From a virus (lineage: Duplodnaviria > Heunggongvirae > Uroviricota > Caudoviricetes): a stretch of DNA of 23,276 nucleotides. A program made the position numbers. Positions 6,001-9,000 of the stretch are shown piece after piece. Each line of letters starts with the position of its first letter. The first letter of the stretch is position 1. The stretch covers positions 1 through 23,276 of the IMG/VR virus record IMGVR_UViG_2636415416_000005, one strand, 5' to 3'.

Positions 6001-9000
6001 TTCGGGTAAGGCTGAATCCTGAATAGCTTAGTGTTTAGTCGCTTTTTTGCGCGCTTGTTCAGGAACCTGATGTAACGATATTGATTAAATTTGTGCGCCA
6101 CGGCCCGCTCCTTATTCGCTCGTAAATATTCGCCGCGCTTCCCTCCACGATTAATCGCATTCATCGTTATCTCGTGATACCACTCACCGTCCAGTTCGTA
6201 GAATGTGCTTTCATGGCTGCCAATAAAATCAAAATTTGACGCCTGATACACAACACCTGCACGCCCGCAACGTTCGTCTGCAAAGGACTGAACCCACTCC
6301 ACTGACGGATACAGTAACCTGATGGTTTTCAGCGCGTAGCTGATGGCCCGTGATTCAGAGTTGCGGGGCATGTCGTCGTGTAGCCACATGCGGTTCAGTT
6401 CCATATAGCCCCGGTTATCCGTTTCAAGCACAACGCGACGCCCTGAGTTGGGGTTAAGGGCATATCCCCACTGAAGAACACCAACCAGATCACGTCCACT
6501 GAATACGCCCAGATGCAACCAGGAGTTATTCACAAAACGGCGGGAATAATGCTTTGTCTGAATGATTGTGCGGGCCAGCCAGCAGGATATGGTTTCAACG
6601 CGCAGCTCCCTTGAACCATAGCCAACAATCCGGCCTTCATACTCAATAACGCAGGGTTTTGTCAGAATGCGTGATTTCTTCTCTTTTCCCACAATACAGC
6701 TCCGTGGGATGCTCCCGGGCACTCGATATGACAATGTAACGTTTACAGCGAGGACATTTGATTTCTATATGCTTAAAACCTCCTTTAAACAGCAATTTAT
6801 TGCAATTTTTACAACGAACAGAGTCCATAATTTCCCCCAGTGTAATAACAGGATATCGCTGCCCGGAGGGCTGGGGGTATTTAATCACACTTGATGCAAA
6901 CCGACGATCGATATGATTCTATCGATCGTCATAAACTATACAAACTGATTATTTAATCGCCTGGTCTGAACGCTCTCACCTCGTCCAGTGTGGGCAACAG
7001 AGAAAGTTGTTCTTTCATCTCCCGCTGACAGCGATAAATCTCATCGTTGCGCTCAACAATGGCCTGTATCATCGCTGTGGCCAGTTCCTCAAGTTCCTGC
7101 GTCGTCAACTGCACCTGCTGATTATCCGCATCACTCCACGTCATATTTGTTTGTGCCGCGACAGATTTTGCCAGCATGACCACCGGGGACAGGCGGCCCA
7201 GTGAGTCGGGGCCAGCATTCCAGATACGACCGTTCCATTCAAACGTGAACGGCTTCGCCTCCTGTTCTGTGCGCCATGCTTCAATTCCCTGACGTCTGGC
7301 CTCTCTGGCCGCTTCCAGCATTTCTGGTGTCACAGTGAATGGGGCTATCTCACCCCATTTGCCGCTTTGCAGTTCCTGCCAGATTTGCTGACCCGTCGGA
7401 GCGACATCATCAGCGGTGGCTGTGTAGGGGACTGCCTGGTCCCTGTCGTCAAAAAAAACGTCACAGTCTACTGCGCCACTTTCGGTATAACGGGGATTAA
7501 TGATTTTTTTAATTTCCACGGTGCATTCCTCACGATGTGCGAATAAAAAGCCCAAGCATTGCGCCAGAGACATATGTATCCGGCACCCCGGACAGGGCGC
7601 AATATGACCCCGGTAATGAATGCTCTGAACATCCCGTAATGAAATATTGTGGGTATACTATATGCGTTCCGGTGGGAGTACAGGGCGCTGAAATCCCCAC
7701 CGGTCCCAGTCGTGAGCCTCTGTATGACCGCCCCCTGACAAGTCTGATGTCTTTATCACCGTCAGCTTTTCCCTGGTACGCAGCAATAATCAGCCCGCCA
7801 ATGTCAGGGTCTCCCCATCTGTTGCGGACAGAGCTCGCCACGATTCTGTAAATAATATCTTCTGTGGTTATATTTATTTTCACCCAGCCAGTCAGTCTGG
7901 ATATGGGCCAGTAGCAGTAGCGGGTGTGATAAATGGGGCCGTTAATGCCGTAAAAAGTAAGGGATTTGGCTCTGTACCTCGGTTCTGTTGTCTCAGGGCG
8001 TGCATCAGTCCACCGGATGCTGAGCCCCCCTTCAAACCGTGTGTCGGGTATGATGATGCCGTAGGGGCCAGCAACGGAATATTCACCTGGCAGCGCATTC
8101 CTTACCCAGGCCAGGAAATCACTCTTAGTGTCAAAACGGATAACATCTTCAGGCAGAAAAGCACACCCAAAGCCGAATGCGCCGGGTATCGCCAGACGGC
8201 CTTTTGTCCGGTCGTAAATGTCGCTCTGTGCTTCCATCGTGGCCGCACTTTTCAGCCCCAGATTATCCCGGGACTTCTGTTGTGCCTTTTCGCCTGCTGC
8301 TGCGATTTCTGACAGATGGTTAGCCATTTTCAGAGTGCCGGTCAGCGCAGCATCAATGTCATTTTTGGCCTGTTCTGCTGCGCGGGCATAACCTGCGGCA
8401 TCCTGTGCGCTCTGTCCGGCTGCGGCTGCATTTGCTCCTGTGCTTGTCACATCTTCCGCAGTGGCCTTTCTGTCCTCAGCTGTGACGGTTGCATCCTGTC
8501 GGGCTTTCTCCGCAAAACGTTGTGCATCATCACGGGCCGTTGCGGCTGGCGCCACATCCTGCGCCGTCTGCTGTGCGTTTCCGGCTGCGGCCCCGGCACT
8601 CTGCTGCGCCTGTTGCGCCAGCTCTTCGAATTTCTTCAGGGATTCCGGACGCAGGTCAATATCAGTTGCGCCCAGAAAATCATTCAGCGAACCGTCCGCT
8701 GAATCTTCATAAACGCGAATGACACCGATTTCTGAAAGGCGTTGTGCGCTCTGTGTCAGGCGAACGCTGTACACGCCCGGCAGAACGGGGAAGTCATACT
8801 CCCCGCTCTGTGTGGTGACGTGGCTGAAAACGCCTTTCAGAATCCCTGCACGGTTGTGCAGGGAGGTCAGTGTAATGGTTGCGCCGCCCAGCGGTTCTCC
8901 CGTGGGCGTTTTAATCACACCTTTAAGCTGCGGCATCGGGACGCTCCGGCCAGTTGATGGCATCAAAGGAGATTTCATCGGTAGCAGTGCTTAAATCCAG

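What the first reader, a model, noticed from the sequence alone, without database searches (positions are those of the whole stretch)
6890..6935. GATC-containing perfect palindrome upstream of com-mom
GACGATCGATA/TATCGATCGTC forms an 11-bp stem with a 6-nt loop and carries two Dam sites. In Mu, mom transcription is controlled by Dam methylation of GATC sites upstream of the promoter (established). Here the GATC sites are arranged as a palindrome, which could act as a methylation-sensitive operator, or as a terminator hairpin ending the tail-fibre transcript.
Basis: partly seen in the sequence, partly recalled or inferred. Interest (0 to 1): 0.45.

Follow-up and report, generated by a model that had tools for sequence, protein, structure and literature searches.

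The report
Dam/OxyR-type operator of prophage mom
The GATC palindrome is real, and it is most likely this Mu-like prophage's version of the known methylation-sensitive OxyR repressor site that guards the toxic mom gene in phage Mu, so it is a new example of a known switch and not a new mechanism.

Summary
A perfect 11-bp inverted repeat (6903-6913 / 6920-6930, 6-nt spacer) carries two GATC sites 18 bp apart. It lies on the gene (minus) strand between a DUF4376 tail-fibre-associated gene and com-mom.

It is not an isolated hairpin. It is the core of a ~49-bp conserved block (6893-6941) that is collinear with the Dam/OxyR operator of Mu Pmom and resembles the agn43 operator:
- The GATC1-GATC2 spacing is 18 bp, as in Mu.
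- An OxyR half-site, ATAGTTTATGACGAT (8/10 to consensus), ends in GATC1 in the same register as in Mu and agn43.
- GATC2 lies 29 bp from a late-activator box, as in Mu.

Mu itself has the same dyad, with 7-bp arms. This lineage differs in three ways: longer arms, a non-methylatable CATC where Mu has GATC3, and a weak second half-site (5/10).

The terminator reading is disfavoured. There is no U-tract, no terminator call, and the hairpin is weak in Mu. It is not excluded as a side role.

Function is inferred from homology only and nothing was tested experimentally. Verdict: new member of a known kind, modest interest.

The parts
6903..6930 (.). Perfect 11-bp inverted repeat, GACGATCGATA / TATCGATCGTC on the + strand, with a 6-nt spacer. 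It is the central dyad of the operator.
   Evidence: The arms are nearly invariant in 20 distinct relatives (2 changes in 22 columns), while spacer positions 1-2 are hypervariable.
6924..6927 (.). GATC1, the promoter-distal Dam site. It is the 3' end of OxyR-like half-site I and lies 99 nt upstream of the com ATG.
   Evidence: Same register as Mu GATC1 and agn43 GATC-I.
6906..6909 (.). GATC2, the promoter-proximal Dam site. It is 18 bp from GATC1 and 29 bp from the activator box.
   Evidence: The 18-bp spacing is shared with Mu, L004, L005, L045, L046, L053 and the L094 island operator.
6925..6939 (-). OxyR-like half-site I, ATAGTTTATGACGAT, 8/10 matches to ATAGnTnnnAnCTAT.
   Evidence: Scores of 8/10 or better occur at 1.7e-4 of window positions. 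It scores 9/10 in L018, 7/10 in Mu and 8/10 in agn43 in the same register.
6894..6908 (-). OxyR-like half-site II, ATCGTCGGTTTGCAT, only 5/10 and therefore weak. It starts 31 bp after half-site I, as in Mu.
   Evidence: The sequence is conserved among window-type relatives, but the consensus match is not significant on its own.
6893..6896 (-). CATC exactly 13 bp after GATC2, where Mu has GATC3. It is a non-methylatable remnant of the third Dam site.
   Evidence: CATC in all 20 window-type sequences. Published work used CATC as a substitution that removes methylation but spares the OxyR consensus (PMC2909390, PMC4856963).
6893..6941 (-). Conserved operator block of about 49 bp, from TATAG to CATC. 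This is the proposed OxyR tetramer site.
   Evidence: 0.0-0.5 substitutions per column inside the block against 1.4-2.0 in both flanks. It is the best match in the whole window to the Mu and agn43 operators.
6868..6881 (-). AATACCCCCAGCCC, the presumed binding box for the phage's late activator (a Mu C-like protein). It marks the com-mom promoter.
   Evidence: the motif occurs 3 times on the gene strand with 0 expected. It resembles cATAACCCCgg in the Mu late-promoter oligonucleotides (PMC4461284). It lies 29 bp from GATC2, as in Mu.
6643..6828 (-). com, the zinc-ribbon translational activator of mom.
   Evidence: Pfam Zn_ribbon_Com, E=2.5e-7. blastn similarity to Mu starts a few codons into com, at 6818.
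5997..6692 (-). mom, the DNA-modification enzyme that is toxic if mis-expressed.
   Evidence: Pfam Mom, E=1.1e-75. 95% protein identity to Mu Mom.
6953..7573 (-). Upstream DUF4376 gene of the tail-fibre cluster. Its stop codon lies 22 nt before the palindrome. There is no gin gene between it and com.

Best explanation
The palindrome is the central dyad of a Dam-methylation-sensitive repressor operator for the com-mom late promoter. It is the counterpart of 'region I' of phage Mu Pmom.

Proposed mechanism, inferred by homology:
1. When GATC1 and GATC2 are unmethylated, host OxyR, in its reduced tetrameric binding mode, occupies about 49 bp (6893-6941). It binds through a strong half-site (ATAGTTTATGACGAT, ending in GATC1) and a weak half-site (starting at GATC2).
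2. The site lies immediately upstream of the late-activator box, so bound OxyR blocks activation of com-mom.
3. Dam methylation of the two GATC adenines prevents OxyR binding and licenses transcription. Transcription still needs the phage's C-like activator. Mom synthesis still needs Com.

The inverted repeat reflects the two-fold symmetry of the inner two of the four OxyR contact elements (CGATC ... GATCG). It is not an RNA structure.

Shown here: the anatomy, its conservation, its collinearity with Mu and its similarity to agn43. Inferred: OxyR binding, Dam dependence and the exact transcription start.
For: 1. Context. com and mom are bona fide (Pfam), in a gin-less Mu-like transposable prophage.

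2. Mu comparison. Upstream of com, Mu has GACGATCGA-N10-TCGATCGG, with GATC1 and GATC2 18 bp apart and GATC3 13 bp further on. The window has the same 18-bp spacing and CATC at +13. GATC2 lies 29 bp from the ATA(A)CCCC activator box in both. Published PvuI digestion of Pmom gives an 18-bp fragment, which fits the two CGATCG sites 18 bp apart in the Mu sequence (PMC3378877).

3. Spacing across lineages. Across 80 IMG/VR loci and 2 genome loci with Mom at 69-100% identity, the GATC spacings 18 and/or 13 recur upstream of com in most lineages, while the surrounding sequence diverges.

4. OxyR half-site. The consensus ATAGnTnnnAnCTAT (PMC2909390, PMC4856963) matches 8/10 at 6925-6939, the only hit of 7/10 or better in this intergenic region. 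The background for 8/10 or better is 1.7e-4 per position. It is in the same register relative to GATC1 as in Mu (7/10), agn43 (8/10), L018 (9/10), L045, L047 and L005.

5. Unbiased scan. The agn43 and Mu operators find their best match in the whole window, on both strands, at this site. Scores are 15-17 against a mean of 5.9 and sd of 1.4. agn43 has the same quasi-palindrome, ACGATCaATA-N7-TATcGATCGT.

6. Conservation. In 20 distinct window-type sequences the low-variation block spans about 49 bp, beyond both arms. Variation is concentrated on two nucleotides in the spacer just 5' of the dyad centre. From my recollection of Toledano et al. 1994, reduced OxyR leaves the middle of its site uncontacted.

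7. Literature. Dam and OxyR govern Pmom (PMC3378877, PMC2909390). GATC methylation inside OxyR half-sites abolishes binding at gtr and agn43 (PMC2909390, PMC13337833).
Against: - Half-site II matches the consensus at only 5/10, which is not significant alone (about 5% of positions reach this).
- The third GATC is lost.
- The half-site spacing is 31 bp, as in Mu, not the canonical 32 bp cited for reduced OxyR (PMC4856963).
- The three inner extra base pairs of the palindrome (GATA/TATC) are not required by the OxyR consensus and are not explained by this model.
- blastn does not align the region to Mu, so homology rests on motif collinearity.
- No binding, methylation or expression data exist for this element.
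- The Mu footprint coordinates are from memory, because the primary papers (Bolker & Kahmann 1989; Hattman & Sun 1997) were not held.
Confidence: 0.75

Rival explanations
1. RNA hairpin at the 3' end of the tail-fibre operon. When transcribed from upstream, the palindrome folds into a stem-loop that terminates or stabilises the late tail-fibre transcript and insulates toxic com-mom from read-through. This could be its main role or a role added to the operator.
For: - The stem starts 22 nt after the DUF4376 stop codon.
- The RNA hairpin centroid energy is -17.4 kcal/mol.
- gin-less lineages tend to have stronger hairpins: window -17.4, L004 -14.9, L005 -14.6, against Mu -8.5.
- No other terminator lies between the tail-fibre genes and com.
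- L018 and L088 lose the outer pair but gain an inner C-G pair.
Against: - No terminator-like site is called on the gene strand. The tail is GGUUUGCAUC, with only 3 consecutive U.
- The fold z-score of the 76-nt segment is only -2.2.
- The phage has a canonical stem plus T-run terminator after mom, so it uses standard terminators where it needs them.
- Conservation extends well outside the stem on both sides.
- Mu-type operators without gin (L020, L030) keep the weak 7-bp dyad.
- The same dyad occurs in agn43, whose only annotated upstream neighbour is the yeeP pseudogene.
- The stem sequence is invariant, so there is no real covariation.
Confidence: 0.12
2. A binding site for a different dimeric protein, such as a phage-encoded regulator or a GATC-binding host protein like SeqA, that recognises CGATCGATA-N6-TATCGATCG. 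In this reading OxyR is not involved in this lineage.
For: - The inner GATA/TATC symmetry is not explained by the OxyR consensus.
- Half-site II is weak at 5/10.
- Independent lineages (L004, L005, L053) also show 10-13-bp near-perfect dyads.
- SeqA is an ancillary factor at other Dam/OxyR loci (PMC4856963).
Against: - The strong ATAG-N7-CGAT half-site lies partly outside the palindrome and is conserved in register with Mu and agn43.
- 18 bp puts the two GATC sites on different helical faces, which from memory of the SeqA literature is poor for SeqA pairing.
- No candidate phage regulator is known, and Mu's own element is an established OxyR target.
Confidence: 0.08
3. Non-functional coincidence. 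Two self-complementary CGATCG sites were retained by descent and the flanks pair by chance.
For: - Six of the 11 arm positions pair automatically.
- The relatives are closely related, so conservation could be partly phylogenetic inertia.
Against: - Variation is 5-10 times lower inside the block than in both flanks of the same sequences.
- The spacing is conserved across lineages with 69-83% Mom identity whose flanks are unalignable.
- GATC is otherwise depleted.
- 0.1 such repeats are expected per window.
Confidence: 0.03

Closest known systems
Phage Mu Pmom upstream 'region I': GATC sites 1-3, the Dam-sensitive OxyR (MomR) operator
   Same: - Same position, immediately upstream of the late-activator box of the com-mom promoter.
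- The same CGATCG pair 18 bp apart, forming a dyad.
- ATAG-N7-CGAT half-site ending in GATC1.
- GATC2 lies 29 bp from the ATA(A)CCCC box.
- The downstream com-mom genes have 87-88% DNA identity and 95% Mom identity.
   Different: - Arms are 11 bp perfect with a 6-nt spacer, against 7 bp with a 10-nt spacer in Mu.
- The third Dam site is CATC, so it cannot be methylated.
- Half-site II is 5/10 against 7/10 in Mu.
- The element is fully intergenic after a tail-fibre-cluster gene, whereas in Mu GATC1 lies inside the 3' end of gin.
- The region is not alignable by blastn.
- The distance to the com ATG is 10 bp shorter.
E. coli agn43 (flu) regulatory region: three GATC sites in an OxyR operator, giving Dam/OxyR phase variation
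   Same: - Layout ATAG-N7-CGATC ... TATCGATCGT, with quasi-palindrome ACGATCaATA-N7-TATcGATCGT.
- 27/36 identity to the window operator with one gap.
- A GATC sits at the inner edge of each OxyR half-site.
   Different: - agn43 has spacings of 19+13 bp and half-sites 32 bp apart, both scoring 8/10.
- From memory, its operator lies downstream of the promoter and produces heritable ON/OFF switching of a host gene.
- Here the site is upstream of an activator-dependent phage late promoter and has only two GATC sites.
Salmonella gtr (P22) and opvAB Dam/OxyR switches
   Same: - GATC sites embedded in OxyR half-sites, where methylation blocks binding.
- A 13-bp GATC pair corresponds to one half-site (ATCG-N7-CGAT).
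- CATC is the substitution that removes methylation without damaging the OxyR consensus (PMC2909390, PMC4856963).
   Different: - Those systems have three or four half-sites and alternative OxyR registers that produce bistability.
- OxyR also acts as an activator there.
- No evidence for alternative registers was found here.
Rho-independent terminator
   Same: A stable stem-loop (-17.4 kcal/mol) shortly after a stop codon.
   Different: - No U-tract.
- Not called by the consensus scan.
- The stem is AT-rich at its base.
- Conservation extends beyond the hairpin.

Membership tests
Mu-type Dam/OxyR operator of the com-mom promoter | Located directly upstream of the late-activator (C) box of a promoter that drives com-mom. 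| tested here: met
   com and mom are confirmed by Pfam. GATC2 is 29 bp from the ATA(A)CCCC box in both Mu and the window. The box motif recurs 3 times on the gene strand with 0 expected.
Mu-type Dam/OxyR operator of the com-mom promoter | A cluster of three GATC sites with spacings of 18 and 13 bp. | tested here: inconclusive
   The 18-bp pair is present. The third site is CATC at exactly +13 in all 20 window-type sequences. L004 also lacks GATC3. This is a two-site variant. Whether two sites suffice is not known from these data.
Mu-type Dam/OxyR operator of the com-mom promoter | Two OxyR half-sites (ATAGnTnnnAnCTAT) about 31-32 bp apart, overlapping the GATC sites. | tested here: inconclusive
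   Half-site I scores 8/10, in register with Mu and agn43. Half-site II scores only 5/10. The spacing is 31 bp, as in Mu. The canonical value is 32 bp (PMC4856963).
Mu-type Dam/OxyR operator of the com-mom promoter | OxyR binds unmethylated DNA but not Dam-methylated DNA, and expression is Dam-dependent and relieved in oxyR mutants. | not testable with these tools
   This needs EMSA or footprinting and reporter assays. It is established for Mu, agn43 and gtr only (PMC3378877, PMC2909390, PMC13337833).
Intrinsic (Rho-independent) terminator | A G+C-rich stem-loop followed directly by a run of T/U on the transcribed strand. | tested here: not met
   No site is called on the minus strand in 6600-7200. 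The tail is GGTTTGCATC. The stem has 5 G-C pairs out of 11.
Intrinsic (Rho-independent) terminator | Hairpin stability is conserved at the orthologous position in relatives. | tested here: not met
   Window -17.4, Mu -8.5, L046 -10.7, L004 -14.9 kcal/mol. Mu-type loci without gin keep the weak dyad.
Known structured RNA family (Rfam) | A covariance-model match. | tested here: not met
   No match at E of 1 or below in 6500-7200 on either strand.

The most novel reading that the evidence does not exclude
The perfected palindrome is a dual-use element that evolved in gin-less Mu-like phages.
- As DNA it is a minimal two-GATC Dam/OxyR operator.
- As RNA, in read-through transcripts from the tail-fibre operon, it forms a -17 kcal/mol hairpin. 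Together with the downstream pairing of the activator box CCCCCAG with the com Shine-Dalgarno CUGGGGG (6828-6840 / 6871-6883), this hairpin would stop or silence read-through expression of toxic com-mom.
- Only transcripts started at the Dam-licensed promoter would then be translated.
Probability: 0.12. Interest if true: 0.45.

Novelty: new member of a known kind. Interest (0 to 1): 0.25.

Why it matters
This confirms that the Dam/OxyR safeguard on the toxic Mom function is conserved well beyond Mu itself. It is found in a gin-less prophage lineage present in about 1% of complete E. coli genomes and in other enterobacterial Mom phages.

It also yields a comparative definition of the operator: ATAG-N7-CGATC-N14-GATCG-N7-(C/A)GATC.

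The natural two-GATC variant, with CATC at site 3 and one strong plus one weak half-site, is a ready-made test of how many methylatable sites an OxyR/Dam switch needs.

The same signature also picked out a candidate, apparently unannotated, Dam/OxyR-type operator upstream of a dynamin-family gene in an E. coli island.

None of this changes the known mechanism.

Tried and rejected
- blastn of the com-mom region against phages aligned Mu, D108 and SfMu only from com codon ~3 onward. The upstream homology had to be established by motif and spacing comparison instead.
- The genome-contig scan with Mom as query gave only 3 loci. The IMG/VR scan with an alignment gave 80.
- The sigma-70 promoter scan found nothing in 6600-7200. 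This is uninformative, because Mu late promoters are known to be poor, activator-dependent promoters (PMC3378877).
- The terminator scan found none on the gene strand. It found two on the + strand (6862-6875 and 6992-7012), which I judged irrelevant or chance.
- Rfam gave no match.
- I looked for an alternative OxyR register inside the palindrome, using oxidised-form 22-bp spacing and ATAG at 6919-6922. The best score was 4/10, so this was rejected (and manual scoring).
- A 53-bp operator query against E. coli genomes recovered only prophage copies and two island loci. It did not recover agn43, because the query is too short for that database size.
- The primary papers on the OxyR-mom footprint (PMC401183, PMC147061) are not held. 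The footprint limits and the Mu transcription start (+1) are therefore from memory or inference.
- I considered gix recombination sites. This was rejected because there is no gin and no sequence similarity.
- I considered a link between hairpin strength and absence of gin. The trend exists, but the sample is tiny and confounded by phylogeny.
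Full report
**Observation**

The sequence holds a perfect inverted repeat with arms at 6903-6913 (GACGATCGATA) and 6920-6930 (TATCGATCGTC), separated by 6 nt. GATC occurs at 6906 and 6924, 18 bp apart, and each is part of a CGATCG site.

All genes here are on the minus strand:
- tail-fibre gene, 7530-8978
- DUF4376 gene, 6953-7573
- the palindrome
- com, ATG at 6828
- mom, GTG at 6692, ending at 5997 (Pfam Zn_ribbon_Com, Mom, DUF4376 and phage_tail_N)

The repeat is not a chance feature. Only three perfect repeats of at least 11 bp with a short loop exist in the 23-kb window, and two of them belong to the IS4 ends. Random sequence gives 0.1. GATC is depleted overall, 37 found against 88 expected. 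Six of the 11 arm positions pair automatically because CGATCG is self-complementary, so the informative part is the 5 extra pairs.

**What the locus is**

The region is the right end of a Mu-like transposable prophage without a gin/G-inversion module.
- Close relatives sit at unrelated chromosomal sites in E. coli, for example next to a T6SS vgr gene in strain VL40 and inside fliH in STEC388.
- blastn similarity to Mu, D108 and SfMu (87-88%) begins only a few codons into com, at 6818. The regulatory region is not alignable that way.
- In some E. coli relatives, similarity to the window starts exactly at the stop codon of the upstream gene. The intergenic region therefore travels with com-mom as one module.

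**Comparison with Mu**

Upstream of com, Mu reads ...ATAGAAAACGACGATCGAATCAATTAAATCGATCGGTAATACAGATCGATTATGCCCCAATAACC....
- GATC1 and GATC2 are 18 bp apart and form their own dyad, CGATCGA-N10-TCGATCG. GATC3 follows 13 bp later.
- A published PvuI digest of a Pmom fragment gives an 18-bp piece (PMC3378877). This fits the two CGATCG sites 18 bp apart in the Mu sequence.
- The window reads ...ATAGTTTATGACGATCGATAGAATCATATCGATCGTCGGTTTGCATCAAGTGTGATTAAATACCCCCAGCCC.... It has the same 18-bp spacing, CATC exactly where GATC3 would be, and the same 29-bp distance from GATC2 to the ATA(A)CCCC box.
- That box is probably the site of the phage's C-like late activator. AATAYCCCCRGCCC occurs three times in the window, always on the gene strand, with 0 expected. 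Mu late promoters carry cATAACCCCgg (oligonucleotide sequences in PMC4461284).

The element is thus collinear, without gaps, with Mu's Dam/OxyR region and activator site.

**Wider comparison**

I examined 80 IMG/VR loci found with a Mom alignment (69-100% identity) and two genome loci.
- GATC sites recur upstream of com with fixed spacings in most lineages. The patterns seen are 18 (window type and L004), 18+13 (Mu type, L005, L045, L046, L053), 19+13 (L047), 31+13 (L044, L049, L081) or 13 only (the L054 group).
- Two loci, L083 and L084, have no GATC upstream of com.
- The rest of the intergenic sequence is unrelated between lineages.
- Dyad symmetry around the 18-bp pair is also recurrent. 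Arms are 10-13 bp with one mismatch in L004, L005 and L053.

**OxyR signature**

The published OxyR dimer half-site is ATAGnTnnnAnCTAT. Centres 32 bp apart are described as canonical for the reduced form (PMC2909390, PMC4856963).
- Scanning gives one hit of 7/10 or better in the window's intergenic region. It is ATAGTTTATGACGAT (8/10) at 6925-6939, ending in GATC1. Scores of 8/10 or better occur at 1.7e-4 of window positions.
- The same register (half-site start = GATC1 minus 12) is hit in Mu (7/10), L018 (9/10), L045, L047 and L005 (8/10), and in K-12 agn43 (ATAGAATAAAACGAT, 8/10).
- The second half-site starts at the A of GATC2. It scores 7/10 in Mu, 8/10 in agn43 and 9/10 in L004, but only 5/10 in the window (ATCGTCGGTTTGCAT).
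- The half-sites are 31 bp apart in Mu and in the window.
- A GATC pair 13 bp apart is simply one half-site written ATCG-N7-CGAT. This matches the gtr layout, where each GATC pair lies within one OxyR half-site (PMC2909390).
- The agn43 operator, ATAGAATAAAACGATCAATATCTATTTTATCGATCGTTTATATCGATCGAT, contains the quasi-palindrome ACGATCaATA-N7-TATcGATCGT. It is 27/36 identical to the window element.
- Local alignment of the agn43 or Mu operator against every 70-nt tile of the window, on both strands, puts the best hit on the palindrome. Scores are 15-17 against a mean of 5.9 and sd of 1.4.

**Conservation within the lineage**

Twenty distinct window-type sequences from IMG/VR and E. coli genomes were anchored on GATC1.
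- They show a low-variation block of about 49 bp, from TATAG to CATC (6893-6941). It has 0.0-0.5 substitutions per column.
- Both flanks have 1.4-2.0 substitutions per column.
- The arms are almost invariant, with 2 changes in 22 columns.
- The first two spacer nucleotides, just 5' of the dyad centre, are hypervariable (GA, GC, TC, CC, AC, CA).

A conserved unit larger than the stem, with freedom near its centre, fits an extended protein site better than a bare hairpin. From my recollection of Toledano et al. 1994, reduced OxyR contacts two pairs of major grooves and skips the middle of its site.

**Terminator alternative**

As RNA on the gene strand the stem-loop is stable, with a centroid of -17.4 kcal/mol and a segment z-score of -2.2. 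It starts 22 nt after the upstream stop codon.

Several things count against a terminator role:
- The tail is GGUUUGCAUC, and no terminator-like site is called on that strand.
- Rfam gives nothing.
- The phage has a textbook terminator after mom, AAAAAAGCAGCGGTTAATGCCGCTGTTTTAT. It is intact in VL40 and split by IS4 here.
- The orthologous hairpin is weak in Mu at -8.5 kcal/mol.
- Mu-type loci lacking gin keep the weak dyad.

gin-less lineages do tend to have stronger stems, so a secondary RNA role is not excluded. The data cannot establish it.

**Conclusion**

The finding is the core of a Dam-methylation-sensitive OxyR-type operator guarding the com-mom late promoter, homologous in layout to Mu's. 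It departs from Mu in three ways:
- a longer, perfect dyad
- only two methylatable sites, with site 3 fixed as CATC, the same change experimenters use to abolish methylation while sparing the OxyR consensus
- one strong and one weak half-site

Binding by OxyR, Dam dependence and the transcription start are inferred, not shown. The inner three pairs of the palindrome remain unexplained by the OxyR consensus. This is a new member of a known regulatory kind and interest is modest.

Noticed in passing
window 4534-5959 (IS4); duplications at 4521-4533 and 5960-5972: A 1426-bp IS4 element is inserted in the loop/3' half of the intrinsic terminator just downstream of mom, with a 13-bp target duplication GCGGTTAATGCCG. 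The terminator is intact in the E. coli VL40 relative (L002 7025-7055). The Mu-like right end, with TATCTTGAA repeats, continues at about 4432-4520, so the IS separates mom from the prophage attR end.
   Followed up: partly
window 5926-5952: Three GATC sites lie within 24 bp inside the IS4 terminal region (TAATGCCGATCAGTTAAGGATCAGTTGACCGATCC). This is the only other tight GATC cluster in the window. It may mean the IS4 end is sensitive to Dam methylation.
   Followed up: no
window 6868-6881, 15909-15922, 18241-18254 (all minus strand): The motif AATAYCCCCRGCCC occurs three times on the gene strand with 0 expected by shuffling. It resembles the cATAACCCCgg element of Mu late promoters. These are probably binding boxes for the prophage's C-like late activator. 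Two of them lie inside ORFs.
   Followed up: partly
window, whole: GATC is strongly under-represented, 37 found against 88 +/- 8 expected. About 25 of the 37 lie in the ~17 kb of prophage sequence.
   Followed up: no
L094 1500-1552 (E. coli O111:H8 NZ_CP077499.1, about 3719090-3719145); also L095: AATAGAATATAACGATCGTTACTATCATATCGATCGTTATAAACGATC lies between a YeeP-like GTPase gene and a dynamin-family gene. It has two 8/10 OxyR half-sites and three GATC sites spaced 18+13 bp, the same layout as Mu Pmom and agn43. It is a candidate Dam/OxyR phase-variation switch that carries no annotation.
   Followed up: partly
window 6828-6840 / 6871-6883: A 13-nt inverted repeat (85% complementary, 30 nt apart) pairs the activator-box CCCCCAG with the com Shine-Dalgarno/start CUGGGGGAAAUUA. 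In a read-through RNA it would mask the com ribosome-binding site. It is only partly kept in relatives. The 161-nt region folds with a z-score of -4.4.
   Followed up: partly
window 6858-6868 (GCCCTCCGGGC on the minus strand): A small conserved palindrome, GCCCnnnGGGC, lies between the activator box and the likely -10 region. It is kept with changes at its centre in relatives (TCC, TCT, TCA). On the + strand the scan flags it as terminator-like.
   Followed up: no
window 693-4086: Host DNA beyond the prophage end encodes T6SS components, including an IcmF/TssM-like protein at 693-2861. The VL40 relative of this prophage is also inserted next to T6SS vgr/Rhs genes, but at a different junction.
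   Followed up: no
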